Notes: generated from the sequence alone by a model not told the origin. DNA of 64,000 nucleotides from an uncultured delta proteobacterium (GCA_963774015.1 CAVZDH010000001.1:1206945-1270944); one strand, 5' to 3'. Counted from the stretch's first letter, positions 18,966 through 33,244 are shown. Translations and numbers: made by a program.

Positions 18966-18969
18966 TGCG

Positions 18970-20007: not shown

Positions 20008-20016
20008 CGCCGGTCG

Positions 20017-21894
20017 TTACCCTTGGAGCGAAACCTGGCGCCGCTGCGCGGCCTCTTGGCGCGCGCGCTCGCGTTCCTCGCGTTTTTTTTGCGCGAACTC
20101 GATCAACGGCTCGACCGGGGCTGCTTGCGGCGGCGCGAACCCGGGGAGGCTCGGCCCGACTGGCTGCAGGGGCTGGCCGTCGCGGACGCGCGGGAGGGGT
20201 ATCGGCCGAAGCGCGAGCAGCTGCGCCGCCGCGTCCTCCGCCCACGCGCCTTCGCGCAGGGGCTGGAGCTCCGCGAAGCCCTGGTCGCGGATGAAATTGA
20301 TGTGCGCACCCTCGCAGCGCTCGTTCACGCGGCAATCGCGGCAGCGGAGCGATTTGGCCTGGTACCCGTGCACGACGTGCGTTCGTGCCAACTCACGGAT
20401 GGCGATGCGACCGGTCTCCGGGTCGAACAGCTTCCGCTCGAGCACCTTGGGCGCCTCGACGAGCTGTGTTCCCGGAGCGAGACAGGCGGTCAGACCGCTG
20501 GTCCGGATGGGGAGCGCGAGCTCGGTGAAGAAGCGCTTCAGATCGCGTACGTCGTTGGCGACCGCGTCTTTCAGGAACTCGTAGGTCGGCTGATGCAGAC
20601 GGACGACGTCGAGGTACGTCTGCACGCGCTCGCGCTGCGACAGCAGCCAGGGGGCGGTGCGCTGGTTCAGCTCGATCTCGACCTCGACACTCGCGGGCAA
20701 CGGCGTCCCGCTCAGCACGACGTCGAGCTGCTCCGGTTCGCGAAGAGCGAGCAGGAGGCGGTTCGGCACGCTCGCACGATCGACGAGTCGGGAGGTGCGT
20801 TTCGGTCGCACGTAGATGCCGACGTCCGGATGCACGCCGAGAGCTTCGACGTCCGGCAGATCGTCGATCTCGAGGCCGACGGATCGGCACCCGAACGGCA
20901 GTTCGCTCGGCGCCGGCAGGGTTTCGTTGGCTCCGTTGGCGGCGCCGATCCACCAGACGTTCCAGCTCTCCCGGTTCTGGCGCTCGATTACCCGATCGGC
21001 CGTGGTGCAGAACGGCTCGATGAAGCAGTGCACGCACCGCTCCTGTTGCCGGCATTCGAGGGGAACGCCTTCGTCGAGGTACTTGCGCACCTGGAAGCGC
21101 CGCCCGTTCACCTCGTCGAGCATCTTGTGCGGATCCTGGATGAGGTCTTCCAGACCCTCGAGGAACTCGACCGGGAAGCGATTCGTCCACACCACGACGT
21201 TGGGATGGCGGTTCAGGCGAAAGACCTTCTGCAGGCGGGGCAGGTGCTCGACGGGATCGTAGAAGAGGTCGTCCCGGTTCTCGAACGCCGCGCCCTGCGG
21301 GATGACGTGCAGGAGGTCGAACTCGTTGACTCCCACCGAGAGGCAGAGCGCGACGATCTTGTCGATGTACGCCACGTTCTGCTTGTTGATGCAGACGTCG
21401 ACGTTCACGATGACGCGTCCGTCGCGGCGGGCGCGGATCATGCCCTTCATGAGCCGGTCGAAGGCGCCCTCGACGCCCGTCAGGCGGTCGTGCAGCTCGG
21501 GCGTGTGGCCGTGCAGGCTGAACGTGATCTCGCCGAGACCGGCCTCGACGGCCGCCAGGTAGAAGTCGCGCTTCGCGAACATGTAGCCGTTGGTGACCGT
21601 CTGCACCCGGTTGTAGCCGATCTCCCGGGCGTAGCGGACGAAGTCGATGAACTTCGGGTGGATCGAGCCTTCGCCGCCCGACAGGATGACCTTGTCGGCG
21701 TTCAGCTCCTCGCGCCCGCGCCGGAGCTCTTGGCGGACGTCGGGCTCCAGCAGGTACATGTTCCGCGGCGTGTCCGTGTCGAGGCAGAACACGCAGCGGC
21801 TGTTGCACGCCGTGACGAGCCGTACCCAGTGCTTCCGGACGTTGGCCGCGCGCTCGCGGTCCAGCATCCGTTCCGTCAGCTGTCCAGCATCCAT
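20017..21894 (-). CDS. radical SAM protein with a long C-terminal extension (625 aa from MDAGQ; alternative start at 21921)
   Basis: VTACNSRCVFCLD and LSGGEGS. A downstream Cys pair ..CRDCRVNERCEG, then a K/R/E-rich tail. The upstream third of the 968-aa ORF is R-rich, non-coding-like, and overlaps gene 21876..23813. Confidence 0.8.
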   Translation of the reverse strand: MDAGQLTERMLDRERAANVRKHWVRLVTACNSRCVFCLDTDTPRNMYLLEPDVRQELRRGREELNADKVILSGGEGSIHPKFIDFVRYAREIGYNRVQTVTNGYMFAKRDFYLAAVEAGLGEITFSLHGHTPELHDRLTGVEGAFDRLMKGMIRARRDGRVIVNVDVCINKQNVAYIDKIVALCLSVGVNEFDLLHVIPQGAAFENRDDLFYDPVEHLPRLQKVFRLNRHPNVVVWTNRFPVEFLEGLEDLIQDPHKMLDEVNGRRFQVRKYLDEGVPLECRQQERCVHCFIEPFCTTADRVIERQNRESWNVWWIGAANGANETLPAPSELPFGCRSVGLEIDDLPDVEALGVHPDVGIYVRPKRTSRLVDRASVPNRLLLALREPEQLDVVLSGTPLPASVEVEIELNQRTAPWLLSQRERVQTYLDVVRLHQPTYEFLKDAVANDVRDLKRFFTELALPIRTSGLTACLAPGTQLVEAPKVLERKLFDPETGRIAIRELARTHVVHGYQAKSLRCRDCRVNERCEGAHINFIRDQGFAELQPLREGAWAEDAAAQLLALRPIPLPRVRDGQPLQPVGPSLPGFAPPQAAPVEPLIEFAQKKREERERARQEAAQRRQVSLQG

Positions 21895-23813
21895 CGTACC
21901 GACCTCGCGTTCCGCTGCCATCCGATCGCCGTGCCCGGGCAGCCGATCACGGTACACACATTTCCGTCGTCGCCGCAGCTCGCAAATGCGCCGACTGGAT
22001 CCGAGCCACGCGGGGCGTACTCGACGCGTCGGCCGAACGCGACGCCGAATGCCGGCCCCTCGCCCTCCACCGACTCGCCGGAAGCACGATCGCCCACGTC
22101 GAGACCTGCTTCCTCGCACAGGCAGTGCGGCAGCACCGCCAATAGCGCCGATCGCGCGGCGCCCGCCGGCAAGCGGCGCGCGCACTCGACGACGTCGTCC
22201 AGTAAAGACCCGTCCGCCGCCAGGCGAAACCGCGGCTGCCCCGGCAGCTCGCCGCGGCTCCACGCGTCGACGAATAGGGGAACCAAGCGCGCGTCGTGGA
22301 TGATCCCGTACGCGCCGACCTCGATCGACGTGTGCTCGTGCAATCGCTCGATGCCACGCAGGGTCGCCGCGAAGGAGCCGGCGATCCCGCAGTGGGCGTC
22401 GTGGCTCGTTGCGTCGGGTCCATAGAACGCCACGTCGATGCGCCGGAGGTCCTTCAATCGACGCAAATCGACGTCGCTCCACTTGACGATGGCGCTCCCC
22501 TCGCCGGCGCATTCGACGCGCGGGAAGAGCCGGACCGCATCGAAGAGCAACGCGGCGGCCTTCGGATGAGCGAGCAGCTCGGCGCCCACGAGCTGCAACA
22601 CCGCCGGCCGGAAGCGCGCGGCCTCGACCAGCCTCGCGCGCACGGCGCGCGTCGACTCGGGTCCGAGCGTGGAATGACCGCCTGCGGTCGAATGACCGCC
22701 TGCGGTCGAATGACCGTCGGCGCACCCGTCGCACCGGAGGCGGCGGGGTCCGCGCCATGAGAGCACCATCGTTCCGGATGGCCGTACGCTCTGCTGCGCG
22801 GCGACGTTCTCCCGAACGCGCTCCGCGATCGGCGCCAGGTCGGCGAGCTCTTCCCAACCGAAGCGCGCAACGTAGTCCGCTGGGGCTCCCGCGCACTGCG
22901 GCCCGCCGGGGCAGTCCGGGCATCCGCGCCCGGCTTCGAGCCCACCATCACTCGACCGCGCCGACTCCATCGACGCGACCGACTGCGCCGACTTGGTCGG
23001 TGCGACCGTGCCGCCCGTCGTCAGCCACACTTCGGCGTCGGAGCGGGCGAAGAGCCGTCGCAGCCGCGGCGCCACGCAGAGGGGGAAATCGCGAATCACC
23101 AAGCGGGCCCGTCGCTGGAGTGCGATCGTCGCCGCGCGTTCGAGATCCTCGGCGAGCAGCGACAGGCGCGGCGAGAGCAGGACGAATTCGGGGACGTCGA
23201 CGTCGACTGCGGTGAGACGCCGGAGCGAGATCGTCCGGACACCAACGCGCGTGAGGACGTCGACCGTCTCCGCGAGATGCGGCATCGTCGGCCGGGTGAC
23301 GACGACCTCGGCCTCGACCGGCATGCCGGTGTCGACGCAGGTGCGAATCGCGCGCAGCGCCGTCTTGAGCGCGCCCGGTTGCCCGACCAACCAGTCGTGG
23401 GCATCCCGGCGTGCACAGTGAAACGGTATGCTCAGCCGCTGCACGCCGGCGGATCGCAGCCGGTCGACCACGGTGTTCGTGAGTCCGGCACCCGTGGTGC
23501 AGAGGCCCAGATTCTCGGGGCGTAGCTCCAAGAGATCGTGGAGAAGAGAGGGCAGGTCGGCGCGGCGAAGCGGATCTCCGCCACCGATCAGGAAGGCGCC
23601 GGGTCGGTCCGTGACGGCGCGCGCGGCGTGGAGGACGTCGCTCGCCGGAAGCTCATCGTCGGCCGCCGCCGCACCGCCTCGCCACGGCAAGCGGGCCGGA
23701 CCGCGAACCAGCGAGACACGGAGGTTGATGCCCCGGATCGAGGCACCTGGTCCGGGGCCCCGTCCGCGCTCTTCGCTCGACGGCGTCGGATAATCGTGGA
23801 GAGTGGTGTTCAC
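21876..23813 (-). CDS. tandem double radical-SAM-like/SPASM-like protein lacking the CxxxCxxC triad in both halves
   Basis: Half 1: ..GINLRVSLV.. (no Cys), FLIGGGDPL, then CPDCPGGPQC. Half 2: VLQLVGAELLAHP, then CGDDGNVCTVIGCPG. The halves are joined by a GGHSTA x3 linker. Confidence 0.6.
   Translation of the reverse strand: MNTTLHDYPTPSSEERGRGPGPGASIRGINLRVSLVRGPARLPWRGGAAAADDELPASDVLHAARAVTDRPGAFLIGGGDPLRRADLPSLLHDLLELRPENLGLCTTGAGLTNTVVDRLRSAGVQRLSIPFHCARRDAHDWLVGQPGALKTALRAIRTCVDTGMPVEAEVVVTRPTMPHLAETVDVLTRVGVRTISLRRLTAVDVDVPEFVLLSPRLSLLAEDLERAATIALQRRARLVIRDFPLCVAPRLRRLFARSDAEVWLTTGGTVAPTKSAQSVASMESARSSDGGLEAGRGCPDCPGGPQCAGAPADYVARFGWEELADLAPIAERVRENVAAQQSVRPSGTMVLSWRGPRRLRCDGCADGHSTAGGHSTAGGHSTLGPESTRAVRARLVEAARFRPAVLQLVGAELLAHPKAAALLFDAVRLFPRVECAGEGSAIVKWSDVDLRRLKDLRRIDVAFYGPDATSHDAHCGIAGSFAATLRGIERLHEHTSIEVGAYGIIHDARLVPLFVDAWSRGELPGQPRFRLAADGSLLDDVVECARRLPAGAARSALLAVLPHCLCEEAGLDVGDRASGESVEGEGPAFGVAFGRRVEYAPRGSDPVGAFASCGDDGNVCTVIGCPGTAIGWQRNARSVRWMLDS
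22672..22725 (-). repeat. 18-bp tandem repeat (gaatgaccgcctgcggtc, 2 perfect + 1 diverged) encoding GGHSTA x3
   Basis: Direct reading. It lies in the inter-domain linker of the 21876..23813 gene. Confidence 0.7.
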
Positions 23814-23884: not shown

Positions 23885-25540
23885 TCAATCGCGGTTGCGC
23901 AGCGACGATCGCGCGGTGCGGAGCGCGCTGGCTTCCTGGAGCAGGTGGGCGTAGGGCCCCCGTTTTCGCCGTCCCTCCGACCTCGGGTGGAGGAGACCCC
24001 GCACCCGGTCGATGCCTGTTATCCGCTCGCCGCCGCAATTGAGCCACGAGCCATCCGACGTCACGAGCTCCTCGAGGAAGTCGGGACGGCGCCGAAGGAG
24101 CTGGAGCGCATCCGCCTGCGCGAATGCGCGGTCGACGAGGGCCCGGCTCTCCGCGACGCGCGCGTCCCAGGCCGGCTTGGTGAGCGTCGTCGTGGCCGGC
24201 AGCGGACAGGGGACCTGCTGGCCGAGGAGCATGGTCATCAGCCCCTGATAGCCGAACGTCGGATCGCCCATTACGAAGCGGTGCGCGTCGGTCTCGAGCC
24301 CGGGGCCGAACCTGGCGAAGCGTTCCAACACCGGTGCGAGCCCCGAGACCTCGACGGTTTCGCGGCAATCTCGCCAGAATGGCGTATCGAGCTTGCGATT
24401 GAACTTGTAGTGGATCGCGAGGAACCAGCGCAGGTCGTCCCAGTGTCTCCCGATGCCCTCGTTCGCGAACGCGCGGTATTCGGGGCGGTCGCCGGACGCT
24501 TGTATGCCGCCGAGCAGGTACGCGATCTCGATGATCACCATGTGGAGCGCCGTCGACTCGAGCGGCTCGACGAAGCCGTAGGAGTTGCCGATCGCCACGG
24601 TATTGCCCTTCCAGAACTCCCGGTGACGGCCGCTCCGGAAGCGCACCGACCACGGCTCGCCGAGCCCGGGATTCTTCGCCCGCATCTCGGCCAGTGCCAG
24701 GTCCGCATTCAGGTGCGCCGACGAGTACACGTAGCCGCGATGGTCCTCACCCTCGACGGGGATCCGCCAGCACCAGCCGGCATCCATCGTCTCCGCGGTG
24801 GTGTAGGGCTGAATGACGCCGGTCTGTGGGACGGTCGCCACGACCGCGGTGTCGCAGAGGAGGCTCGACGCGTAGCTCGTGAAGGGCGAGCCCAGGATCT
24901 TTTCGATCAGCAAAGCGCGGAACCCGGTCGCGTCCACATAGAGGTCGGCGCGCAGCTCACGCTCGTCGTCGAGGATCAGCCGGTCGATGCTTTCGCCGTC
25001 GGTGGTTGTCGCGTCTTTGACGACCGCGTCGACGTGATGGATCCCGCCGCGTCGAGCGTGCTTCGTGAGGTAGGTGACGAAGGGCTGGTTGTCGACGTGG
25101 TACGCGAACTTGAGATCCGGGAGGAGCGAGAGCGGGGCGCCATCGTCGCCCCGCACGATCGGCGTGCGGTTGGTCGCCATCATCATCGCGACCACCGACT
25201 GGTTCTCGATCGTGCCGTCGTGGGTGTAGGCCTCGACGACGTTGTTGTCGCCGAACCCGTAGGCGAAACGGTAGTCGCCGGGCAGTCCCCACTCGAAGTT
25301 GATGCCGAGCTTCCACGTCGGGCGGACCTCACGGTAGAAGTCGACGATGTCGATGCCGAGCTGCTGGTGCAGGAACGGCGGCATCAGAGTCGTCGTCGCT
25401 TCGCCGACGCCGATGATCGGAATCGTGCTCGACTCGACCAGCGTCACGTCGAGCTCCGGGAGCTGCCGCTTCAGCGCGAGCGCCGCGAAGTAGCCTGCGG
25501 TTCCTCCGCCGACGACGACGACGCGGCGAACAGGCCCCAT
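23885..25540 (-). CDS. FAD-dependent tryptophan-halogenase-family protein
   Basis: VVVGGGTAGY. GVGEAT. The WxWxIP motif (GWCWRIP). The length and order of motifs match PF04820. Confidence 0.85.
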   Translation of the reverse strand: MGPVRRVVVVGGGTAGYFAALALKRQLPELDVTLVESSTIPIIGVGEATTTLMPPFLHQQLGIDIVDFYREVRPTWKLGINFEWGLPGDYRFAYGFGDNNVVEAYTHDGTIENQSVVAMMMATNRTPIVRGDDGAPLSLLPDLKFAYHVDNQPFVTYLTKHARRGGIHHVDAVVKDATTTDGESIDRLILDDERELRADLYVDATGFRALLIEKILGSPFTSYASSLLCDTAVVATVPQTGVIQPYTTAETMDAGWCWRIPVEGEDHRGYVYSSAHLNADLALAEMRAKNPGLGEPWSVRFRSGRHREFWKGNTVAIGNSYGFVEPLESTALHMVIIEIAYLLGGIQASGDRPEYRAFANEGIGRHWDDLRWFLAIHYKFNRKLDTPFWRDCRETVEVSGLAPVLERFARFGPGLETDAHRFVMGDPTFGYQGLMTMLLGQQVPCPLPATTTLTKPAWDARVAESRALVDRAFAQADALQLLRRRPDFLEELVTSDGSWLNCGGERITGIDRVRGLLHPRSEGRRKRGPYAHLLQEASALRTARSSLRNRD

Positions 25541-27022
25541 CTAGCGATGCCGGCCGGCTCCGGTCGTCCAGCGCTGCAGGATCTCGATCGTCGCGCGGTC
25601 GTTCTCGTCCGCCAGTGACGCGAACAGCGTGCGTGCGACGGCCATGTGCTCCTTGCACTCGAAAGATCGCGGCCGTTGACCGAAGAGGTCTCCTTCGCGG
25701 ACGTAGCTCGTCACGGGGGAGATGCCGCAGAACGGCTTGTTCCAGCAGTCCGCGCACATCGGCTGCGCGTCGAGGAGCGATGCCGCCGTGATCGCCCGGA
25801 CCGTCGGGTGTCGGACGATGTCGGCGATCGTCAGCTTTCGCACGTTGCCGAGCGCGAAGATGGGATCCCCCAGCGCGTCGACGCGCCGTGCCTCGTCGCT
25901 CGGGAATATCTGGCCATCGACGTCGTACAGGAGCTCGCTCGTCCCGGCCGAGCACGGCGATCGGATCTCCCGCGCAGCGGGATTCCCGCAGGACAGGATG
26001 CTGTTCAGGAACCCCGACGCCGTTCGCTCGGCGAGGCGCACCCCGCTGCGATTCAGCTCCAGGATATGGCCGAACGCACGGTCGTAGAATGCCAGGTATT
26101 CCTCGGCAGTGTACCCGATCGTTTGCCACGCCTCGGCGTCGAAGCCGAGCGGGCTGAGCGGTTGCAGCTGGATGGACTGCATCCCACGAGCCACGTACTC
26201 GTCCACGACCTCGCGCCACGCCGGCAGCGTTCGCCGCGTCGTCGTGACTCTGGTGTCCACGTGCCAAACCTCGGGATCGCGACCGAGGTCGCGGTATCGA
26301 CGCTCGAACCACGCGAGCCACCGCACCACGTCCGCGTGTGCGCCGGCCACCGTGTACCTGCGGTTCCACTCGTGGATCTCGGCTGGTCCGTCGAGCCACG
26401 TCCGGACGGCGACGTCGTTTGCGAGCAGCCACTCCGCGGTCTCCTCCGTCATCCCGCTCAGGTTGCTGACGAGCGTGAAGCGGAGCGTCTTGCCCGCGGC
26501 GCGCTCGTTCGTCGCCCGCGCGAATTCCACCAGGTGCCGGACGCCGTCGACGTTCAGCAGCGGCTCGCCCGCATGCGCCTGCAGCTCGAACGACACCGAA
26601 GGGGACGTGGTCTGGAGCGCGACGTCGACGATGCGCTCGGCCGTTTTCCGATCGAGGTCCAGGCGAGCGTCGGGTGACGCGGACGGGGCCTCGCCACGGT
26701 CATCGCAGCGCCGGGTCATCATGACGACGTGCAGCTCCGGCCCGCGCGCGACATGGCCCACGCGCCGCGCCAGCCTGGTTGCGAGCGCGTCGAGATCGAG
26801 GCCGTCGCGAAGAAAACCCCCGGCGTGGAGCTGCGCGAAGCGCGGGTGGCCTTCCGTGACCTCTCCCGCGAGCAGTTGGACGAACTCCGGCTCGCTCAGG
26901 AGCACCCAATCGCCACCGTCCGTGGTGATCAGAACCTTCCCGGCGATTCGGCCCCAGCGAAAGAATCCCAGCCGATCGATCGCGACCGTCGACGGGAAAG
27001 GTACCGCGAAGCTCGCGGACAT
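25541..27022 (-). CDS. HxsB/HxsC-like radical-SAM-fold maturase homolog with a degenerate Fe-S motif (..MTRRCDDRGEAP..) and a C-terminal SPASM-like cluster
   Basis: Second rSAM motif QAHAGEPLL. CADCWNKPFCGISP. Only one Cys where CxxxCxxC is expected. Tightly packed with neighbours (1-nt and 0-nt junctions). Confidence 0.65.
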   Translation of the reverse strand: MSASFAVPFPSTVAIDRLGFFRWGRIAGKVLITTDGGDWVLLSEPEFVQLLAGEVTEGHPRFAQLHAGGFLRDGLDLDALATRLARRVGHVARGPELHVVMMTRRCDDRGEAPSASPDARLDLDRKTAERIVDVALQTTSPSVSFELQAHAGEPLLNVDGVRHLVEFARATNERAAGKTLRFTLVSNLSGMTEETAEWLLANDVAVRTWLDGPAEIHEWNRRYTVAGAHADVVRWLAWFERRYRDLGRDPEVWHVDTRVTTTRRTLPAWREVVDEYVARGMQSIQLQPLSPLGFDAEAWQTIGYTAEEYLAFYDRAFGHILELNRSGVRLAERTASGFLNSILSCGNPAAREIRSPCSAGTSELLYDVDGQIFPSDEARRVDALGDPIFALGNVRKLTIADIVRHPTVRAITAASLLDAQPMCADCWNKPFCGISPVTSYVREGDLFGQRPRSFECKEHMAVARTLFASLADENDRATIEILQRWTTGAGRHR

Positions 27023-27312
27023 TACTGAGCGCCCTCCGGACGGCCCTCCGGGCGGCCCTCCGAGGCTTCGGGCGCCTCCGGCGCCTCGAGCGCGGCGGCC
27101 CGCCGCATTCGCACGACGGTTTCCTGCAAGGCGAGGTTGCAGAACGAGTGCTCGATCGTGTCGCGATCAGCGCCGCGAACGGCGCCGACGACCGCGACCA
27201 CCGCGTCGCCCGAGTGCTCGAGGGCGATGTCCGCGTACTCGGCGTAGGTCGCCGCTGCTGCCTCGACGGCGTCGGGAGCGTACAGCGATCGGTCGAAGGT
27301 GATCCGGCCCAT
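27022..27312 (-). CDS. HxsD-like small protein (96 aa)
   Basis: MGRITFDRSLYAPDAVEAAAATYAEY..EHSFCNLALQETVVRMRR. Pattern Y..EAI..AAY...(40 aa)..F.N.LL....R. The upstream 41 codons of the ORF look spurious. Confidence 0.55.
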   Translation of the reverse strand: MGRITFDRSLYAPDAVEAAAATYAEYADIALEHSGDAVVAVVGAVRGADRDTIEHSFCNLALQETVVRMRRAAALEAPEAPEASEGRPEGRPEGAQ

Positions 27313-27328
27313 CCGAAACGTGGCGACC

Positions 27329-27838
27329 CTACTTCGGCTCGCTTCCCTTGTCGCTTTGCTTCCCTTCCCAGGGAACGGAGATCTCGAGCGGGTCGTCCCC
27401 GAGCTCTTCCGCGTCGAGCTCGGCGAGGAGATCATCGACGGACGGCGCCGAGGCCGCTGCTCGCAACGCTGCGGCCGTGTAGTACTCGCGGATGCGCGCG
27501 GCGGCGTGCGATAGGCGCAGCCGCGTCGCCTGCGAGAGCATCTCGTTCATGAACTCGCCGGCGAGCACTTCGAGCTCGGCGGACGTCGCTGGTGCACGCG
27601 ACGTCAAGCGAACGTTCACCACCTGGGGTCTCGGCCGGGAGAGAAACACGAAGCACCGGTCGACGAAAAGATACGCCCCCCCGTAGATCGCTTCGAGGGA
27701 ATAGACCGTCTCGTCGACGTCGAATGATGCATGATCGCGCCCGAACGAGACGCCGAGGCGCGACTCGGGGACTTCCGACCGAACGTCATGTTCACCGATC
27801 GCCACGGCTCTTCCTTTCGCCCGTCGTTCTTGGTTCAC
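27329..27838 (-). CDS. second HxsD-like paralog (up to 169 aa; start uncertain)
   Basis: ..VYSLEAIYGGAYLFVDR..GEFMNEMLSQATRLRL. Same pattern as above. GTG start at 27838. Confidence 0.45.
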   Translation of the reverse strand: MNQERRAKGRAVAIGEHDVRSEVPESRLGVSFGRDHASFDVDETVYSLEAIYGGAYLFVDRCFVFLSRPRPQVVNVRLTSRAPATSAELEVLAGEFMNEMLSQATRLRLSHAAARIREYYTAAALRAAASAPSVDDLLAELDAEELGDDPLEISVPWEGKQSDKGSEPK

Positions 27839-28210
27839 CGGTGCGGGCCAGCGTCTGCTCGCGCACGAGGACGACGGATGTAGCTCAATTGCGAACTGGC
27901 GGGCAACAACGTCGTCGAAATGGAGATGTGGCGTCGGCGATCGCGTTCCGCATGATGCACCGTGTCTCCTCCCAGTCGGGACGTTCCTGCTACCTGGTCG
28001 CGCGTGTCGACGATGAGTCGCTCCAGGTGGCGCTCAATTCCGAGCGGGGCACGGCGCACGCGACCTGCGCCTGCACGAATGCACGATGTCGTGCGTTGCG
28101 CACGACGCGCGGCCCGTGCGGGTGCAGCCGTGTGTGGAGCCGATTCATCGCTGCCGATCATCCTGCGCCAAAAAGTCGCGCCAAAATTTCGTCGCCTCCT
28201 TACTTTTTCA

Positions 28211-28236
28211 TTGACAAGTTCCCCTGCACCTATGGT
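28211..28236 (+). promoter_or_regulatory. candidate sigma70-like promoter (TTGACA ..14 nt.. TATGGT) in the divergent intergenic region. Local GC drop at 28140-28320.
   Basis: Direct reading. The spacer is short, so this is weak. Confidence 0.2.
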
Positions 28237-28415
28237 AGCGGATCGCGTCCCCAAGTGCCGCGCCCCCACATGTCGCACATATCGCTCATAAGCGTTTCGC
28301 AAAAAGGCGGCTCGTCCGCGATGACGATCCACGCGGTGGTGGTCTCTGCGGAGCGGCATGGTGGGGAAGGATGTCGGAGGCGCGAGGGAGTCAGGTTTCC
28401 AGAAGGGAGCGGGCG

Positions 28416-29021
28416 ATGCTTTCACGACGCGAATTGATCGGCAAAGCGGCAGTGGGTGCGGCCGCAGCGTTGGCAGTGGGGGGCATGGGAACGGCGGTGG
28501 CGGCGACGCGGCCCCTGCGGGTGCCGATGGACGATCCCACGCGCGGCCGGGACGGGCGGACAGCGACGGACGCGCCCATGGACGCCGCGGAGGCGCCGGA
28601 CGCCGCCGCAGCGAGCGCCGCGCCGCCGCCCTGGGAGCTGCTGGCGCCGTTCCGTGCGGGCGCCGTGGTCGCGCACGGCTGGCGTCTCGTCGACGTGACG
28701 CCGATCCGGGACGGATCGGCGGTCGTGACGCTGCAGAACGCGCGTGGGCGCGCGCACCGCGTGCATCTTTGCCGCAATGACGGGAGCCCGCAGGGGATCG
28801 TCTACACGCGGCGGGTCGATCTCGTGGTGATGAATCAGGGCTACGGGGATCTTCCGACCGAGGAGCATCTGGGGCAGGCCGTTGCGACGCTGGCGCATGC
28901 GGTGGCGGCCAACGAGGCCCGGGTGCCGGACGGCGTATTCGCCGAGCTCGTGCCGCACGCCGAGCGCGTGCGGCGCTACGCGGCGGCGGCGGATGCTTCG
29001 GCGGACGGCAGGCTGCGGTGA
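28416..29021 (+). CDS. Tat-signal secreted hypothetical protein
   Basis: RBS agggagcgggcg, then MLSRRELIGKAAVGAAAALAVGG (twin-arginine motif). It lies 37 nt upstream of the HxsA-like gene. Confidence 0.6.
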   Translation: MLSRRELIGKAAVGAAAALAVGGMGTAVAATRPLRVPMDDPTRGRDGRTATDAPMDAAEAPDAAAASAAPPPWELLAPFRAGAVVAHGWRLVDVTPIRDGSAVVTLQNARGRAHRVHLCRNDGSPQGIVYTRRVDLVVMNQGYGDLPTEEHLGQAVATLAHAVAANEARVPDGVFAELVPHAERVRRYAAAADASADGRLR

Positions 29022-29058
29022 CGGGCGGACGCAAGCGAACTCAGGTGAAGGAGCCGAC

Positions 29059-29376
29059 ATGAGCGACCAAGAGAAGGGGCTGCCGTTACTGCGCAAGACG
29101 CCGGTGGATTTCCTCAGTCGGGAGGAAGCCCGCCAAGCGCTCAATCCCGACGTCGCGCTGGACGCGTCCGAGGCGGCGCGGGCGCTGCGCGCCGAACCCA
29201 ACAGCGAGAAGCTGCTGCTCGCCCAACATTTGTCCCACGCATCGCACGGCAGCCACGGGAGTCACGGCAGCCATGGGAGTCACGGGAGCCACGGGAGCCA
29301 CGGCAGCCACGGCAGTCACGGCTCGCACGGCAGTCACGGTTCCCACGGCAGTCACGGCTCTCACGGGTCGTGGTGA
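29059..29376 (+). CDS. hxsA: His-Xaa-Ser repeat precursor peptide (HxsA-like): leader plus (H-G/A-S)x16 and a C-terminal Trp
   Basis: RBS ggtgaaggag, then ATG 29059. Leader MSDQEKGLPLLRKTPVDFLSREEARQALNPDVALDASEAARALRAEPNSEKLLLAQHL. Core SHASHGSHGSHG....SHGSW*. Confidence 0.75.
   Translation: MSDQEKGLPLLRKTPVDFLSREEARQALNPDVALDASEAARALRAEPNSEKLLLAQHLSHASHGSHGSHGSHGSHGSHGSHGSHGSHGSHGSHGSHGSHGSHGSW
29235..29370 (+). repeat. 9-bp coding microsatellite (cac-ggn-agy)n, ~15 units
   Basis: Direct reading of the hxsA core region. Confidence 0.85.
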
Positions 29377-29425
29377 GAATCCGCCCGGTATCAGAACGCA
29401 CCTCGGCGTAAACGGAGGCATCGCG

Positions 29426-32400
29426 ATGACGATAGCTCGGCCACAGCGGAGAATTTGGGCGGCGCAGACCCGTGCGTTCGGTACGACGACACCGGGTCGC
29501 GCAAGACGGCACGGCTCGGCTCTGGCCAGCATGGCGACCCTGGCGGTCCTCGGACTGCTGGTCGCGGCGGCGCCGGCCGCGGCAATCGTCCTCACCGGCG
29601 GGCCGACGTATTCGCCTGGTAGCGGGTGGTCCTGCACCGCGCCGGCTGCCGGCCTCGAGAAGCTCGCCGGTGGCGGCAACTACTCGTGTAGCGGCACCGC
29701 GAGCGCATTCAGCAATCTCTACATCGGCATCAACAGCAACACGGGCTCGCCGTTCGGCGACAAGATGAACAGCAGCGGCGGCTCCGAGCCGAGCGGCGCG
29801 GAGCGGTTCGTGTGGTCGGCGAACGGCTCGACCTTCATCCGCTACACGGGGACCACCTCGATCACCGGCTTCGGCACGGTGTTCACGCGCGTGACGCTCA
29901 CGTTCAGTGCCTCGGGCGCGGTGGTGGACGACGCGACGACCCAGGCCCTCACCGGCACCAATATCAACGGCTCGGTGCATGCGTTGTGGCGCATTGGGTC
30001 GGGGGTCGGTGCGATGACCGTCAACGTCCTGATCGAAGCGAGCAGCAGCTCCGGCGGGCCCTGGTCTCCGGCGGACGTGTTTTTCAACAACGGCGGGCAC
30101 CGCTTGGGTAACGGCACCGACGTCGACCGCTCGCACGTCGACCTGGCGTTCTACACATCGACCTGCGGCGATGGCCAAATCGATACCGTGGCCGGGACTG
30201 ATGCGAGTGCCGAGCAGTGCGACACCGGGATCGCCGGCAGCGTCTGCTGCAACTCCAACTGCACCTTCAACAGCGGTAGCGTGTGTCGCGCCGCGGCGGG
30301 CGTGTGCGACGTGCAGGAGACCTGCAACGGGTCGAGCGCGACGTGCCCGGCCAATGCCTTCGTGAGCTCGGCGACGGTCTGCCGGCCGTCGGCGGGGGTC
30401 TGCGACACGGCGGAGAACTGCACGGGATCGTCAGCGGCATGTCCTGCCGACTCCTTCGCGAGCTCGGCGACGGTCTGCCGGTCGTCGGCGGGCATCTGCG
30501 ACACCGCGGAGAACTGCACGGGATCGTCAGCGGCATGTCCTGCCGACTCCTTCGCGAGCTCGGCGACGGTCTGTCGCGCGTCGGCGGGCATCTGCGACGT
30601 CGCCGAGAATTGCACCGGTTCGAGCGCCGCGTGTCCCGCCGACTCCTTCGCGAGCTCGGCGACGGTCTGTCGCGCGTCGGCGGGCGTCTGCGACGTCGCC
30701 GAGAATTGCACCGGGTCGAGCGCCGCGTGTCCGGCGAACGGCTTCCAGAGCTCGGCGACGGTTTGCCGTCCGTCGGCGGGCGTCTGCGACGTGGCGGAGA
30801 CCTGTACCGGGGCGAGCGCCGCATGTCCGGGCGACTCGTTCGAGAGCGCGGCGACGGTCTGCCGCGGCGCTGCCGGCGTCTGCGACCTGGCGGAGAACTG
30901 CACGGGCGCGTCGGCGGCGTGTCCCGCCGACAGCAAGAGCTCGGCGGTCTGCCGTCCGTCGGCGGGCGTCTGCGACGTCGCCGAGAGCTGCGACGGGGTC
31001 GGGAACAACTGTCCGGCCGACGGCTTCGCGAGCGCGGCGACGGTCTGCCGAGGCGCGGCGGGCGTCTGCGACGTGGCGGAGAACTGCACGGGCGCGTCGG
31101 CGGCGTGTCCGGCCGACAGCAAGAGCTCGGCGGTCTGCCGTCCGTCGGCGGGCGTCTGCGACGTCGCCGAGAGCTGTGACGGGGTCGGCAACAACTGTCC
31201 GGCCGACGGCTTCCTGAGCTCCTCGACGGAGTGCCGGAGCGCGGCGGGTGTCTGCGACCTGGCGGAGAACTGCACGGGCTCGTCGGCGGCATGTCCCGCC
31301 GACAGCAAGAGCTCGGCGGTCTGCCGTCCGTCGGCGGGCGTCTGCGACGTCGCCGAGAGCTGCGACGGGGTGGGTAACAACTGTCCGGCCGACGGCTTCG
31401 CGGGTGCCGCGACGGTTTGTCGGGCAGCGGGCGGCGTCTGCGACCTCGCGGAGAACTGCACCGGCGCGTCGGCGGCCTGCCCGGCCGATTCGAAGAGCAC
31501 CGCGGTCTGCCGTCCGAACGCGGGCGTTTGCGACACCCCCGAGACCTGCGACGGGGTGAGCAACGCCTGTCCGGCCGACACCTTCCTCTCGAGCGCGACC
31601 GTCTGCCGGCCTACCGCCGGCATCTGCGACGTCGCGGAGAACTGCTCGGGCTCGTCGGCTGCGTGCCCGACCGACGCTTTCGAGCCGAGCTCGACGGTCT
31701 GCCGCAGCGCCGCTGGCGTGTGCGACGCGGTCGAGAACTGCACCGGCAGTGGCGCGGCTTGCCCCGCCGACGGCAAGCTCAACGGCTCGACGACCTGCCG
31801 CGCGGCTGCCGACGTGTGTGACGTCGCCGAGACCTGCAACGGTTCATCCGACGACTGTCCCGCCGACGCCTTCGCCTCGTCGTCGACCGTCTGCCGGCCC
31901 GAGGCCGGCGTCTGCGACGTGGCAGAGAACTGCACGGGCAGCGGCGCGGCGTGTCCGGCCGACGCGGTGGAGCCGTCGAGCACCGAGTGCCGTCCGGTCG
32001 CCGGCATCTGCGACGTTGCCGAGAACTGCGACGGTAGCAGCGTGAACTGTCCGAGCGACTCCTTCGAGAGCAGCTCGGTTACCTGCCGGCCGGTGAACGG
32101 CGTCTGTGACGTCGCCGAGCAGTGCACCGGTACGGGCCCGAACTGCCCGGCCGACTCCTTCGAGAACAGCTCGGTGGTCTGCCGCCCATCCTCGGGCGTG
32201 TGCGATACCGTGGAGAGCTGCTCGGGCAGCGCGGCGGATTGCCCGGCCGATGGGGTCGAGCCGACCACCACGGTCTGCCGCCCGGCGGCGAGCACGGCCG
32301 ACGCGCCCGAGGACTGCGACGGCACGAACAAGTTCTGCCCGGCCGACGCCTTCTTGCCCGCCGGGACGCCGTGCGACGACGGCAGCTTCTGCACCTTCGA

Positions 32401-33214
32401 CGACCAGGCCGACGGCTTCGGGACCTGCGTCGGCCAGCCGGTCGATTGCGACGACCACAATCCCTGCACCGACGACTCGTGCGACTCGCAGTCGATGGGC
32501 TTCCTATGTGAGTACGTGAACAACGGCATCTGCATCGGGGCGAACTGCGGCAACTTCGTGGTCGACGCGGGAGAGACCTGCGATCCGCCCGACCTCGGCA
32601 TCGGCCCGAACGGCCAGCCCATCTGCCGGCTCGACTGCACGTCGTGCGGCGACGGCGTGGTGCAGGCGAACGACACCGAGACCTGCGACGACGGGAATCT
32701 GGTGAGCGGGTGCCGGACCGACAAGCCGCAAAAGCCGCTCGACGACTGCCTCAACAACTGCAACGAGCCGATCTGCGCCGACCCGGCCCGCATCCAGTTC
32801 GGGTCGGAGGTGCGGCCCGACGTCTACCAGTTCCACGGCCGCCTGATCTCGCCCGTGCCGGTGGACTTCGTGAACAACCACTTCGTGATCGAGCTCCAGG
32901 ACTCGAGCGGCAACGTGATCTACCGCTCGTCGTTGGTCCGCGGGTCGATCGAGGTGCAGAACGCGAAGTCGACACGTTACAAGAACCGTGGAGCGCGCGC
33001 CGCGGGTGGCATCTACCAGCTGAAGACGAAGCAGGCGGACGGCTACTACGTCGTGACCCTCAAGACCTACGGCGACATGTCGCTCGCGACGTCGGACATG
33101 TCGACGCACGTCTACATCGGCGCCGACGAATGGGCGATCCGCGGGATCTGGACGCAGCAGGGCTCGAAGGGCTGGAAGCTCACCAGCAAGGCGGTCTTCC
33201 TCCCCGTACCGTGA
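29426..33214 (+). CDS. giant secreted Cys-rich repeat protein. It has an N-terminal domain, ~25 tandem 32-aa CRxxAGxCDxAExCxGxSxxCPxD repeats, myxo-type CGDG..CDDGN Cys modules and a C-terminal beta-rich domain.
   Basis: RBS ggagg 8 nt before ATG 29426. Signal-like ..MATLAVLGLLVAAAPAAA. Repeats span 30285-32350, with adjacent 96-bp units identical at the DNA level. C-terminus ..YQLKTKQADGYYVVTLKTYG.. Confidence 0.8.
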   Translation: MTIARPQRRIWAAQTRAFGTTTPGRARRHGSALASMATLAVLGLLVAAAPAAAIVLTGGPTYSPGSGWSCTAPAAGLEKLAGGGNYSCSGTASAFSNLYIGINSNTGSPFGDKMNSSGGSEPSGAERFVWSANGSTFIRYTGTTSITGFGTVFTRVTLTFSASGAVVDDATTQALTGTNINGSVHALWRIGSGVGAMTVNVLIEASSSSGGPWSPADVFFNNGGHRLGNGTDVDRSHVDLAFYTSTCGDGQIDTVAGTDASAEQCDTGIAGSVCCNSNCTFNSGSVCRAAAGVCDVQETCNGSSATCPANAFVSSATVCRPSAGVCDTAENCTGSSAACPADSFASSATVCRSSAGICDTAENCTGSSAACPADSFASSATVCRASAGICDVAENCTGSSAACPADSFASSATVCRASAGVCDVAENCTGSSAACPANGFQSSATVCRPSAGVCDVAETCTGASAACPGDSFESAATVCRGAAGVCDLAENCTGASAACPADSKSSAVCRPSAGVCDVAESCDGVGNNCPADGFASAATVCRGAAGVCDVAENCTGASAACPADSKSSAVCRPSAGVCDVAESCDGVGNNCPADGFLSSSTECRSAAGVCDLAENCTGSSAACPADSKSSAVCRPSAGVCDVAESCDGVGNNCPADGFAGAATVCRAAGGVCDLAENCTGASAACPADSKSTAVCRPNAGVCDTPETCDGVSNACPADTFLSSATVCRPTAGICDVAENCSGSSAACPTDAFEPSSTVCRSAAGVCDAVENCTGSGAACPADGKLNGSTTCRAAADVCDVAETCNGSSDDCPADAFASSSTVCRPEAGVCDVAENCTGSGAACPADAVEPSSTECRPVAGICDVAENCDGSSVNCPSDSFESSSVTCRPVNGVCDVAEQCTGTGPNCPADSFENSSVVCRPSSGVCDTVESCSGSAADCPADGVEPTTTVCRPAASTADAPEDCDGTNKFCPADAFLPAGTPCDDGSFCTFDDQADGFGTCVGQPVDCDDHNPCTDDSCDSQSMGFLCEYVNNGICIGANCGNFVVDAGETCDPPDLGIGPNGQPICRLDCTSCGDGVVQANDTETCDDGNLVSGCRTDKPQKPLDDCLNNCNEPICADPARIQFGSEVRPDVYQFHGRLISPVPVDFVNNHFVIELQDSSGNVIYRSSLVRGSIEVQNAKSTRYKNRGARAAGGIYQLKTKQADGYYVVTLKTYGDMSLATSDMSTHVYIGADEWAIRGIWTQQGSKGWKLTSKAVFLPVP
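30285..32350 (+). repeat. array of 96-bp coding tandem repeats (many near-identical copies)
   Basis: For example, the block cacgggatcgtcagcggcatgtcctgccgactccttcgcgagctcggcgacggtctg.. recurs verbatim at 30421 and 30517. Confidence 0.8.
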
Positions 33215-33244
33215 TGCGATCCCGCGGCGCGGGCACGCGAGCCG

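What the first reader, a model, noticed from the sequence alone, without database searches (positions are those of the whole stretch)
28416..29426. HxsA precursor is flanked by a Tat-secreted protein and lies 50 nt upstream of a 1262-aa secreted Cys-repeat giant
Seen: the Tat-protein gene (28416-29021), hxsA (29059-29376) and the giant ORF (29426-33214) are co-directional with 37-nt and 49-nt gaps. There is no intervening terminator-like hairpin.

Inference: the modified HXS peptide may be co-expressed with, and functionally tied to, an extracellular cysteine-rich protein. Possible roles are a metal-binding partner (His-rich repeats), a secretion partner or a matrix component. His-Gly-Ser repeats are classic metal-chelating sequences.
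Basis: inference. Interest (0 to 1): 0.55.

Follow-up and report, generated by a model that had tools for sequence, protein, structure and literature searches.

The report
Conserved Tat-protein / HxsA4 / giant cassette
A short His-Gly-Ser repeat peptide (HxsA4) is almost always encoded between a small Tat-exported protein and a giant secreted cysteine-repeat protein in soil Myxococcota and Binatia, so the three form one undescribed module of a radical-SAM peptide-maturation system whose enterobacterial relative blocks phage DNA entry.

Summary
Three co-directional genes lie at 28416-29021, 29059-29376 and 29426-33214. The gaps are 37 and 49 nt, each gene has a Shine-Dalgarno site, and there is no terminator-like hairpin.

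The link is not chance. I fetched 80 metagenome loci using only the HxsA4 leader. The Tat-protein gene sat directly upstream in 79 of 79 informative loci. A giant gene with the same ~200-aa N-terminal domain sat directly downstream in 38 of 38. Cassettes are duplicated in tandem and also occur away from the maturases.

The giant has a conserved N-domain, 9-41 disintegrin-like repeats and a polymorphic C-terminal domain. The window's two other disintegrin-repeat proteins lack the N-domain and have no cassette.

The Tat protein's mature domain is a new fold family with about 486 clusters. Nearly all carry twin-arginine signals. In one lineage the domain is fused, without a signal, to HxsD-like, HxsC-like radical-SAM and ferredoxin domains.

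HxsA4 has no signal peptide and always ends in Trp. This window adds a MibH-like peptide Trp halogenase.

Best model, which is inferred: HxsA4 is matured in the cytoplasm, leaves the cell bound to the Tat protein, and joins the giant in the envelope.

This is a new variant of the HXS system.

The parts
28211..28238 (+). Promoter-like box TTGACA-N16-TGGTAG, about 180-200 nt upstream of the Tat-protein start, followed by a conserved 5' leader
   Evidence: Conserved in 10 maturase-linked loci and one orphan cassette. The consensus scanner did not call it. Its function is inferred.
28416..29021 (+). Tat-signal protein of 201 aa: twin-arginine signal (residues 1-30), variable acidic/Pro linker (31-67), conserved alpha/beta 'X-domain' (68-192)
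   Evidence: No Pfam or NCBIfam hit. More than 900 close homologues and 486 clusters at 50% identity. AF2 pLDDT is about 90 for residues 68-192, with no PDB fold match. It sits directly upstream of HxsA4 in 79/79 loci. The domain is fused to Hxs maturase domains in P0315.
29059..29376 (+). hxsA4: 105-aa precursor with a 56-aa acidic leader, no signal peptide, core HLSHAS(HGS)14 and a C-terminal Trp
   Evidence: NF038313 scores 102 bits against a cutoff of 55. The leader shows 84% mean column identity across lineages. 54/56 complete metagenome copies end in HGSW, and repeat number ranges from 10 to 29.
29426..33214 (+). Giant secreted protein of 1262 aa: conserved N-extension plus signal peptide (residues 1-55), cassette-specific N-domain (51-245; nt 29576-30160), 21 disintegrin-like 30-32-aa four-Cys repeats (287-950; nt 30284-32275), and a Cys-rich plus beta-rich C-terminal domain (about 1011-1262; nt 32456-33211)
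   Evidence: PF00200 gives 21 matches and 350 bits. Repeat map; DNA period 96. The N-domain is conserved in all cassette giants but absent from the window's other disintegrin-repeat proteins. C-terminal tails fall into at least 4 classes. The AF2 model of the N-domain is a beta-sandwich with pLDDT 62 and no significant PDB match.
27329..27838 (-). HxsD-type small protein, first gene of the divergent maturase operon (longest ORF; the true start may lie further in)
   Evidence: TIGR03976 scores 45 bits against a cutoff of 50. The orthologue in L001 carries PF27806 HxsD. The position is conserved.
27022..27312 (-). HxsD-like protein. The ORF extends to 27435, but the start at Met42 (27312) avoids overlap with hxsD.
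   Evidence: NF038315 scores 48 bits against a cutoff of 41.
25541..27022 (-). HxsB radical SAM/SPASM maturase
   Evidence: TIGR03978 scores 365 bits against a cutoff of 370, E 5e-109. Conserved next to HxsD in all maturase-linked loci.
23885..25540 (-). Flavin-dependent Trp halogenase of the peptide-modifying (MibH) type; an accessory gene found in only some loci
   Evidence: PF04820 scores 379 bits. Best PDB hit is 5UAO (MibH), 480 bits, E 9e-143, with the GGGTAG, K (TWKLGI), GWCW.IP and EPLES motifs aligned. 5UAO = MibH per PMC10858898. Also present in L011 and L013.
15679..23813 (-). Five further radical-SAM genes, distantly HxsC/HxsC4-like: rS1 21876-23813, rS2 20017-~21951, rS3 18970-20007, rS4 16632-18965, rS5 15679-~16701
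   Evidence: Pfam Radical_SAM hits. NCBIfam HxsC/HxsC4 are the best or near-best hits for most of them, all far below cutoff. Frames were checked by GC3. rS2-rS4 are 70-98% conserved in other loci.

Best explanation
SHOWN BY COMPARATIVE EVIDENCE
- The three genes are one conserved, co-directional cassette, most likely one transcript.
- The cassette is the substrate/effector module of an HxsA4-type His-Xaa-Ser system.
- Its maturases are encoded divergently: HxsD, HxsD-like, HxsB, about five HxsC-like radical-SAM proteins and, in this window, a MibH-like Trp halogenase.

INFERRED MECHANISM
1. HxsA4 has a leader, a (His-Gly-Ser)n core and a terminal Trp, but no signal peptide. It is modified in the cytoplasm by HxsB, the HxsC-like enzymes and HxsD. 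In this window its invariant C-terminal Trp is also halogenated.
2. The small Tat protein folds in the cytoplasm. Its X-domain works with the Hxs machinery there, as shown by fusion of that domain to HxsD-like, HxsC-like radical-SAM and ferredoxin domains in another lineage.
3. The X-domain binds matured HxsA4 and carries it across the membrane through the Tat pathway as a hitchhiker.
4. In the envelope the pair associates with the conserved N-domain of the signal-peptide-bearing giant.
5. The giant's variable-length, disulfide-rich disintegrin-like stalk displays a polymorphic C-terminal domain.

COMPARISON WITH CLASSICAL HxsA
Classical HxsA carries its own signal peptide and a peptidoglycan anchor on the same chain. 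Here export and anchoring would be supplied in trans by the two flanking genes.
For: Cassette invariance
- 79/79 loci have the Tat gene upstream and 38/38 have the N-domain giant downstream, in loci anchored on HxsA4 alone.
- The same holds in genome loci anchored on the Tat protein.
- Tandem cassettes: 2 in L002, 3 in L007. Orphan cassettes with no maturase within 10 kb upstream: L002, L024, L066, L087.
- The link is to the giant's N-domain, not to disintegrin repeats in general.

One transcription unit
- Short gaps, SD sites, no terminators and no stable hairpins.
- A single conserved promoter-like box lies upstream of the Tat gene.

HxsA4
- No hydrophobic segment.
- No exporter or peptidase gene lies in or next to the operon.

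Tat targeting
- It is conserved family-wide: about 90/98 representatives.
- The signal itself is almost invariant.

Rosetta-stone fusion
- P0315 = HxsD-rel + X-domain (38% identity, E 5e-24) + HxsD-like + HxsC-like rSAM + ferredoxin.
- P0295 shows the start of the same architecture: HxsD-rel + X-domain + the start of an HxsD-like segment, cut at the contig end.
- A second gene order has a Tat-X paralogue directly ahead of HxsD-HxsB (L011, L013, L015, L017).

Classical HxsA
- It is matured in the cytoplasm by HxsB/C/D and acts in the periplasm (PMC13128918).

Halogenase
- It is closest to the RiPP Trp chlorinase MibH.
- HxsA4 always ends in Trp.
Against: - There is no direct evidence of binding between any two of the three products. 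I could not co-fold them.
- The fusion proteins place the X-domain in the cytoplasm. Its primary job could therefore be in maturation rather than export.
- The X-domain has no fold match that would suggest peptide binding.
- No leader peptidase is evident.
- Some Tat-X paralogues have no hxsA4 directly downstream (L013 Tat2, L011, L015, L017).
- One cassette (the middle one in L007) lacks a giant.
- The halogenase is present in only a minority of loci although the terminal Trp is universal.
- Co-transcription is not measured.
- The window's HxsB and HxsD score just below the NCBIfam cutoffs, and no protein meets the HxsC or HxsC4 models.
Confidence: 0.5

Rival explanations
1. The Tat protein is a periplasmic receptor, anchor or processing factor, not a carrier. 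HxsA4 leaves the cytoplasm by another route, such as a transporter encoded elsewhere or lysis. It then meets the Tat protein and the giant outside. The cassette is still one functional module.
For: The cassette conservation fits this equally well. The Tat protein has a long flexible acidic linker after the signal and an unusually conserved signal. That could mean it stays tethered to the inner membrane as a periplasmic docking site. Invariant His117, Cys119, Asn121 and Asp122 in close homologues could form a binding or metal site.
Against: It does not explain why a cofactor-less 130-aa domain uses Tat rather than Sec across hundreds of clusters. It does not explain why the same domain is fused to cytoplasmic HxsD-like and radical-SAM domains. 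No alternative exporter lies in or beside the locus. The Cys is lost in distant members.
Confidence: 0.2
2. HxsA4 is the precursor of a peptide-derived cofactor or prosthetic group for the Tat protein. This would resemble PQQ, mycofactocin or the Trp-derived quinone of quinohemoprotein amine dehydrogenase. The invariant C-terminal Trp, or the His/Ser repeats, would be converted by the radical-SAM and flavin enzymes. The cofactor would be loaded in the cytoplasm, which is why the holo-protein uses Tat.
For: Tat substrates are typically loaded with cofactor in the cytoplasm. The invariant C-terminal residue resembles the MftA/PqqA logic (my own knowledge). HxsB gives weak hits to QhpD and the flavoprotein to QhpG, LodB and GoxB. 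One Tat gene pairs with each hxsA4.
Against: The flavoprotein is clearly a MibH-type halogenase (480 bits to 5UAO) and is absent from most loci. A long (HGS)n array of 10-29 units, conserved as such, is not expected for a small-cofactor precursor. The X-domain has no redox-enzyme fold match. The model does not explain the giant.
Confidence: 0.1
3. One reading: the His-rich peptide is mainly a metal chelator (Ni, Zn or Cu) that serves or loads the extracellular Cys-rich giant. The Tat protein acts as a metallochaperone.
For: There are 16 His in the 49-residue core. The Tat protein has an invariant His/Cys/Asp cluster in close homologues. His-rich repeats commonly bind metals (general knowledge).
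Against: No metal transporter, metal-responsive regulator or riboswitch lies in the locus. The giant's Cys residues follow the four-Cys disintegrin pattern expected to form disulfides, and it has only 8 His. Simple chelation does not explain the need for about six radical-SAM enzymes. In classical HXS the repeats are covalently modified and proposed to bind DNA.
Confidence: 0.1
4. The adjacency is inherited synteny among related genomes with no functional coupling. Disintegrin-repeat proteins are simply abundant in these genomes.
For: The 64-kb window holds three disintegrin-repeat proteins. Most loci come from related soil lineages.
Against: The triad persists at 45% Tat-protein identity and 27-33% N-domain identity. 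It is duplicated as a unit and moved to orphan sites. It involves a specific N-domain that the non-cassette disintegrin proteins lack. The counts are 79/79 and 38/38.
Confidence: 0.03

Closest known systems
Classical HXS antiphage system HxsD-HxsB-HxsC-HxsA of Gammaproteobacteria (PMC13128918; Haft & Basu His-Xaa-Ser system, TIGR03976-03979)
   Same: Both have a His-Xaa-Ser repeat substrate, an HxsB-type rSAM/SPASM enzyme, HxsD-type small proteins and HxsC-like radical-SAM enzymes. In the classical system maturation is cytoplasmic and the product acts outside the cytoplasm.
   Different: - HxsA4 is a 105-aa peptide with 10-29 strict HGS units and a terminal Trp. It has no signal peptide and no peptidoglycan-binding domain.
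- The substrate is transcribed divergently from the maturases.
- There are about five divergent HxsC-like genes instead of one HxsC.
- There are two obligatory extra genes, the Tat-X protein and the N-domain giant.
- Hosts are Myxococcota and Binatia, not Pseudomonadota.
- Antiphage activity is untested.
NCBIfam NF038313 HxsA4 / NF038332 HxsC4 (catalogued variant; no paper found)
   Same: The window peptide scores 102 bits against a cutoff of 55, so it is a member of HxsA4.
   Different: The paired HxsC4 model is not met (best 115 bits against a cutoff of 500). The flanking Tat protein and the giant's N-domain have no model in NCBIfam or Pfam.
Tat 'hitchhiker' co-export of signal-less partners (e.g. 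hydrogenase small/large subunits, DmsAB; my own knowledge)
   Same: A signal-less product is encoded next to a twin-arginine-signal protein that must fold before export.
   Different: The cargo here would be a radical-SAM-modified peptide and the carrier a cofactor-less 130-aa domain. No complex has been shown.
MibH / NAI-107 and other RiPP Trp halogenases (PDB 5UAO; PMC10858898)
   Same: The window flavoprotein is the closest sequence relative of MibH among solved structures (480 bits), with the catalytic motifs aligned. It sits in a peptide-maturation operon whose substrate has a single, invariant Trp.
   Different: The substrate is an HxS-repeat peptide, not a lanthipeptide. The gene is accessory: present in the window, L011 and L013 only.
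Disintegrin domain of ADAMs and snake-venom metalloproteinases (PF00200)
   Same: The repeats share the four-Cys motif CRxxxGxCDxxExCxGxSxxCPxD of the C-terminal half of the domain. There are 21 matches.
   Different: Only profile positions ~28-75 are reiterated as a 30-32-aa unit. There is no metalloprotease domain. No RGD-type loop was examined. The host is bacterial. The repeats most likely act as a rigid disulfide-rich stalk.
Polymorphic bacterial surface and adhesin proteins with a conserved N-terminus, variable-length repeat stalk and variable tip
   Same: The architecture matches: conserved N-domain, 9-41 repeats, at least 4 unrelated C-terminal classes, and tandem paralogues.
   Different: No known anchor or secretion domain is present (no T5SS, T1SS or LPXTG motif). 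Instead the giant pairs with a Tat protein and an rSAM-matured peptide.

Membership tests
NCBIfam HxsA4 (NF038313) | Whole-protein score above the curated cutoff (55 bits) | tested here: met
   102.4 bits, E 1.8e-29, covering model positions 2-93 of 93
His-Xaa-Ser (HXS) system, classical | Substrate with tandem His-Xaa-Ser repeats | tested here: met
   16 H-x-S triplets (HLS, HAS, 14 HGS)
His-Xaa-Ser (HXS) system, classical | HxsA carries its own signal peptide and a peptidoglycan-binding domain (PMC13128918) | tested here: not met
   No hydrophobic N-terminal segment and no domain beyond the leader and repeats. TIGR03979 scores only 16.5 bits against a cutoff of 121.65
His-Xaa-Ser (HXS) system, classical | HxsB radical SAM/SPASM maturase (TIGR03978) | tested here: inconclusive
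   365.1 bits against a cutoff of 370, full-length alignment, E 5e-109. It is clearly the closest family but just below the equivalog cutoff.
His-Xaa-Ser (HXS) system, classical | HxsC radical SAM maturase (TIGR03977) adjacent to HxsB | tested here: not met
   The best of the five rSAM genes scores 95.8 bits against a cutoff of 267.9. HxsC4 (NF038332) scores at best 115 against 500. These are HxsC-like only.
His-Xaa-Ser (HXS) system, classical | HxsD small protein (TIGR03976) | tested here: inconclusive
   45 bits against a cutoff of 50. The second small protein meets HxsD-like NF038315 (48 against 41). The orthologue carries PF27806 HxsD.
His-Xaa-Ser (HXS) system, classical | Gene order hxsD-B-C-A on one strand (99.6% of systems, PMC13128918) | tested here: not met
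   hxsA4 is divergent from hxsD-hxsB and is flanked by two extra genes
His-Xaa-Ser (HXS) system, classical | Confers phage resistance by blocking DNA entry | not testable with these tools
   There are no PADLOC hits beyond generic viperin-like rSAM similarity. This needs experiment.
Tat (twin-arginine) substrates | S/T-R-R-x-F/L-L/I-K motif followed by a mildly hydrophobic h-region and an A-x-A site | tested here: met
   MLSRRELIGKAAVGAAAALAVGG...AVAAT. The motif is invariant in 26 homologues and present in about 90/98 family representatives. TIGR01409 itself gave no hit for the window protein. Actual export was not tested.
Pfam Disintegrin (PF00200) | Score above the gathering threshold, with the Cys pattern of the domain | tested here: met
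   350 bits in 21 stretches. Only profile positions ~28-75 are covered, so this is a partial-domain repeat.
Pfam Disintegrin (PF00200) | Integrin-binding loop or association with a reprolysin metalloprotease | not tested
   No metalloprotease domain was detected in the protein by Pfam. Loop function was not assessed.
Flavin-dependent tryptophan halogenases (PF04820), peptide-acting MibH type | Family score, GxGxxG, catalytic Lys, WxWxIP and Glu (EPLES) motifs | tested here: met
   PF04820 scores 379 bits. The alignment to 5UAO (480 bits) shows GGGTAG, TWKLGI, GWCW(R/T)IP and EPLES conserved. The substrate and the halide were not tested.
RiPP-type precursor/maturase systems | Short precursor with a conserved leader and a modified core, encoded beside its maturases and a small recognition protein | tested here: inconclusive
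   The leader/core layout and the adjacent rSAM/SPASM and HxsD genes are present. Modification and leader removal have not been shown.
Collagen-like triple-helix repeat (PF01391) | Gly-X-Y repeats above the gathering score that form a trimer | tested here: inconclusive
   (Gly-Ser-His)n scores 31 bits against a gathering score of 27.2. This is probably a periodicity artefact: there is no trimerisation domain and no Pro.

The most novel reading that the evidence does not exclude
The cassette is a previously unrecognised way of exporting and deploying a radical-SAM-matured peptide. A dedicated twin-arginine carrier protein ferries the signal-less poly(His-Gly-Ser)-Trp product out of the cytoplasm. 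Outside, the product arms or anchors giant, length-variable, disulfide-rich stalk proteins with polymorphic tips. This would be an envelope structure of Myxococcota and Binatia, possibly the functional counterpart of the periplasmic HXS barrier against phage DNA entry.
Probability: 0.2. Interest if true: 0.8.

Novelty: new variant of a known kind. Interest (0 to 1): 0.62.

Why it matters
HXS systems were shown only in 2026 to be an antiphage barrier that uses a radical-SAM-matured periplasmic effector. How that effector is exported, and what the modification is, remain open (PMC13128918).

The HxsA4 cassette separates onto three genes what classical HxsA combines on one chain. That makes several things directly testable:
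- a dedicated export or escort partner;
- an envelope partner;
- a substrate with many identical repeat units, which suits mass spectrometry of the rSAM chemistry.

It also defines two uncharacterised protein families: the Tat-signal X-domain (about 486 clusters at 50% identity) and the giant's N-domain. The X-domain is linked to Hxs maturases by gene fusion.

If Tat hitchhiking holds, it would be a new export route for RiPP-like products.

Tried and rejected
- Is the X-domain an exported HxsD paralogue? hhalign of X-domain against HxsD alignments found no relation.
- Protein-database search with the HxsA4 leader gave only 13 hits, because short ORFs are poorly represented. I replaced it with a DNA-level metagenome scan.
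- A plasmid search with a distant X-domain member found nothing.
- The locus of the fusion protein P0315 (L101) holds no HxS-repeat ORF within 8.6 kb, so its substrate is unknown.
- Rfam found nothing in 27000-30000. The conserved 5' leader has no convincing consensus structure.
- PADLOC found no defence-system membership.
- Rejected ORFs: the long antisense ORF 30151-32793 (-) and the alternative start 29273. They share the high GC3 of the giant's frame because of frame geometry, and they read through the HGS repeats out of frame.
- Rejected start: 28371 for the Tat protein.
- Source record. The window's own Tat protein (P0001) could not be located by exact look-up. The source organism is therefore not named. 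The closest locus is a 'delta proteobacterium' MAG, CAVXIU010000006.1.

Full report
OBSERVATION

- The Tat-protein gene is 28416-29021 (201 aa).
- hxsA is 29059-29376 (105 aa).
- The giant ORF is 29426-33214 (1262 aa).
- All lie on the + strand, with gaps of 37 and 49 nt.

Each gene has a Shine-Dalgarno box: AGGGAG, AAGGAG and GGAGG. No terminator-like site was found in 27000-34000. The two intergenic RNAs fold no better than shuffled controls, with z = +1.5 and +0.9. All three frames have GC3 of 0.81-0.90, typical of coding sequence in this 69% GC window.

The start of the Tat protein at MLSRRELIGK is the one shared by 25 homologues. The giant's start at MTIARPQRR matches the MT[LV]ARPQ start of its homologues.

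IDENTITIES

hxsA
- It scores 102 bits on NCBIfam NF038313 'HxsA4' (cutoff 55) and only weakly on classical HxsA.
- The peptide has an acidic 56-residue leader with no hydrophobic segment, followed by HLSHAS(HGS)14W.

The giant
- It has 112 Cys and 21 units of 30-32 residues with the motif CRxxxGxCDxxExCxGxSxxCPxD.
- Pfam reads these units as 21 partial Disintegrin domains, 350 bits in all.
- The DNA repeat period is 96.

The Tat protein
- It has no Pfam or NCBIfam family.
- It has a twin-arginine signal, a variable acidic linker and a conserved ~125-residue domain, here called the X-domain.
- AlphaFold models the X-domain confidently (pLDDT about 90) as a beta-sheet plus three helices.
- It has no PDB fold match.

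The divergent minus-strand operon
- HxsD (45 bits against a cutoff of 50).
- An HxsD-like protein (48 against 41).
- HxsB rSAM/SPASM (365 against 370).
- A Trp-halogenase-family flavoprotein.
- Five more radical-SAM genes. HxsC or HxsC4 is the best or near-best NCBIfam match for most of them, far below cutoff.

Upstream of the last of these lie Uma2, IS66 and ParE remnants and an RTX protein. There is no exporter and no peptidase.

IS THE ADJACENCY MEANINGFUL?

I used two independent anchors.

(a) Tat-protein alignment against species-representative genomes. This gave 18 loci from Polyangiaceae, other 'delta proteobacterium' MAGs, Candidatus Binatia and a few unclassified MAGs.
- Every hxsA4 found there follows a Tat gene.
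- Wherever the DNA continues, the next gene is homologous to the giant.
- One 7-Mb contig carries three cassettes, two of them in tandem.
- L007 carries three cassettes in tandem.

(b) The HxsA4 leader alone against metagenome contigs. This gave 230 relatives, of which 80 loci were fetched. Judging by sample identifiers they are mostly from soil and rhizosphere, though that was not checked.
- 79 of 79 copies with at least 300 nt upstream have the Tat gene immediately upstream, with gaps of 27-73 nt in intact copies.
- 38 of 38 with at least 300 nt downstream have the giant's N-domain gene next.
- 54 of 56 complete copies end in HGSW. The other two look frameshifted.
- Repeat number runs from 10 to 25 here, and up to 29 in genome loci.
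- Two metagenome gene calls of the giant even begin in the alternative frame of the HGS repeats.

The tie is to a specific ~200-residue N-terminal domain of the giant (residues 51-245).
- It is found in every cassette giant, down to 27-33% identity in the Binatia-type loci.
- It is absent from the window's two other disintegrin-repeat proteins, at 35743-39506 (+) and 53395-57003 (-). Those proteins have no cassette.

Complete giants range from 789 to 1930 aa with 9-41 repeats. Their last ~250 residues fall into at least four unrelated classes. The architecture is therefore a conserved N-domain, a variable stalk and a polymorphic tip.

LOCUS ARCHITECTURE ELSEWHERE

The common form is [rS4-rS3-rS2-(rS1)-HxsB-HxsD-like-HxsD] divergent from [Tat-HxsA4-giant].

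A second form occurs in L011, L013, L015 and L017. It places a Tat-X paralogue directly ahead of HxsD-HxsD-like-HxsB on the same strand.

Orphan cassettes, with no maturase in the 10 kb fetched upstream, also exist (L002, L024, L066, L087).

A TTGACA-N16-TGGTA(C/G) box lies about 200 nt upstream of the Tat start. It is conserved in ten maturase-linked loci and in one orphan cassette. Nothing comparable fits in the 37- and 49-nt gaps. This supports one transcription unit, though that remains an inference.

THE TAT PROTEIN IS PART OF THE HXS MACHINERY

An exhaustive profile search found 486 clusters at 50% identity (259 at E < 1e-10). Almost all are 150-210 residues long.

About 90 of 98 representatives with a complete N-terminus carry a twin-arginine motif. 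Tat targeting is therefore a family trait.

The exceptions are informative.
- P0315 is a 730-residue soil-metagenome protein.
- It reads: HxsD-like (NF038315), X-domain, HxsD-like segment, HxsC-like radical SAM, [2Fe-2S] ferredoxin.
- Its X-domain is 38% identical to the window protein (E 5e-24) and has no signal.
- P0295, from a Dormibacterota MAG, is cut at a contig end but begins the same way: HxsD-like, X-domain and the start of a second HxsD-like segment.

This fusion shows that the X-domain works physically with HxsD and HxsC-type enzymes, which are cytoplasmic.

MECHANISM

Classical HxsA is matured in the cytoplasm by HxsB, HxsC and HxsD. It is processed at its N-terminus and acts in the periplasm. 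It carries its own signal peptide and a peptidoglycan-binding domain. Its export is described as non-canonical (PMC13128918).

HxsA4 has neither a signal nor an anchor.

The simplest model that fits all the observations runs as follows.
1. The Tat protein folds in the cytoplasm.
2. It engages the maturing or matured HxsA4 there. This explains the use of Tat rather than Sec, the fusion to maturase domains, the one-to-one gene pairing, and the lack of an exporter gene.
3. It carries HxsA4 out as a hitchhiker.
4. The giant has its own signal peptide. With 112 Cys it most likely uses Sec and forms its disulfides outside the cytoplasm. It would be the envelope or extracellular partner, acting through its conserved N-domain.

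Only the genomic coupling is shown. Binding, export and localisation are all inferred.

I put the existence of a functional three-gene module at about 0.9. I put the Tat-carrier mechanism specifically at about 0.35. My overall confidence in the combined statement is 0.5.

Rivals
- The Tat protein is a periplasmic receptor or anchor.
- HxsA4 is a cofactor precursor for the Tat protein.
- HxsA4 is a metal chelator.
- The adjacency is plain synteny. This last one is effectively excluded.

SIDE FINDING: THE HALOGENASE

The flavoprotein at 23885-25540 is the closest sequence relative, among solved structures, of MibH (PDB 5UAO; 480 bits). MibH is the Trp chlorinase of the lanthipeptide NAI-107. The catalytic Lys, the WxWxIP motif and the Glu motif all align.

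HxsA4's single Trp is its invariant last residue, so it is the obvious target.

The halogenase is accessory. It appears only in the window, L011 and L013, with a trace in L008.

COMPARISON AND NOVELTY

The peptide is a member of the catalogued HxsA4 family. The locus works like an HXS system.

It fails several defining features of the classical system.
- No cis signal peptide or peptidoglycan-binding domain.
- No HxsC equivalog.
- A different gene order.

I found no paper mentioning HxsA4 or HxsC4, the Tat partner or the giant. PADLOC has no model for it.

I therefore class it as a new variant of a known kind. It has two undescribed obligatory components.

Noticed in passing
window 23885-25540 (-): Flavin-dependent halogenase whose best solved relative is MibH (5UAO), the RiPP Trp chlorinase, at 480 bits with catalytic motifs intact. 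It is inserted between a radical-SAM gene and hxsB. HxsA4's only Trp is its invariant C-terminal residue, so a halogenated C-terminal Trp is predicted. The gene is present in only a few loci (window, L011, L013).
   Followed up: partly
window 15679-23813 (-): Five consecutive radical-SAM genes, two of ~645 aa and one of 777 aa with two rSAM-like regions. All are only distantly HxsC/HxsC4-like. rS2-rS4 are 70-98% conserved in other loci. This is an unusually large rSAM complement for one short peptide.
   Followed up: partly
window 35743-39506 (+), shifts near 38222 and 38270: A purple-acid-phosphatase/metallophosphoesterase protein fused to disintegrin-like repeats is split over three frames. 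Two +1 shifts within one repeat are needed to read ...VVCRPATG/VCDVAEKCTGASAD/CPADGF.... It is either a pseudogene or a pair of long-read indel errors. The orthologue in L001 is called as one 1091-aa gene.
   Followed up: partly
window 53395-57003 (-): A third disintegrin-repeat giant (1202 aa, 20 repeats, plus a Myxococcus Cys-rich acidic repeat). It lacks the cassette N-domain and has no Tat or hxsA4 genes beside it. The repeat stalk is therefore a reusable module in this genome.
   Followed up: partly
window 28211-28415 (+): A TTGACA-N16-TGGTAG box is followed by a ~200-nt 5' leader. Its last ~60 nt (GGAATCCGGAA...GAGTCAGGTTTCCAGAAGGGAGCGGGCG) are conserved across loci, including orphan cassettes. 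There is no Rfam hit and no convincing consensus structure. It may be a regulator-binding site.
   Followed up: partly
window 29224-29373 (+): Read in the Gly register, the HGS array is a perfect Gly-Ser-His (Gly-X-Y) repeat. It scores above the gathering threshold of Pfam Collagen (31 against 27.2 bits). This is probably a periodicity artefact, but a triple-helical or metal-bridged assembly is not excluded.
   Followed up: no
L101 628-2820 (P0315); also P0295: A multidomain protein: HxsD-like + X-domain (no Tat signal) + HxsD-like + HxsC-like radical SAM + [2Fe-2S] ferredoxin. It sits in a soil-metagenome contig with two more large rSAM-type genes. No HxS-repeat ORF lies within 8.6 kb, so this may be a related system with an unknown substrate.
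   Followed up: partly
window 33245-36103 (-): A membrane protein with a C-terminal TPR domain (552 aa) and a WD40 beta-propeller protein lie convergent to the giant. One or both recur downstream of the cassette in several other loci (L003, L069, L070, L093). They may be further accessory genes.
   Followed up: no
window 29426-29530 (+): The giant has a conserved ~35-residue N-terminal extension (MT[LIV]ARPQRR..AAQTRA...RRHGS) ahead of the hydrophobic signal segment. The extension is shortened in some paralogues. It contains an RR pair, but not in a canonical Tat context. Its role is unknown.
   Followed up: no
window 8227-15524: Just beyond the last radical-SAM gene lie a Uma2-family endonuclease, an IS66 TnpB remnant, a ParE toxin and an RTX-repeat protein. 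These mobile-element and toxin-antitoxin remnants mark the edge of the Hxs locus.
   Followed up: no
window 30151-32793 (-) and 29273-33214 (+): Long spurious ORFs. One is an 880-aa antisense ORF with GC3 of 0.90, which shares its third codon positions with the giant. The other is an upstream ATG that reads the HGS repeats out of frame. Gene callers on metagenomes make the second error (P0147, P0153).
   Followed up: yes
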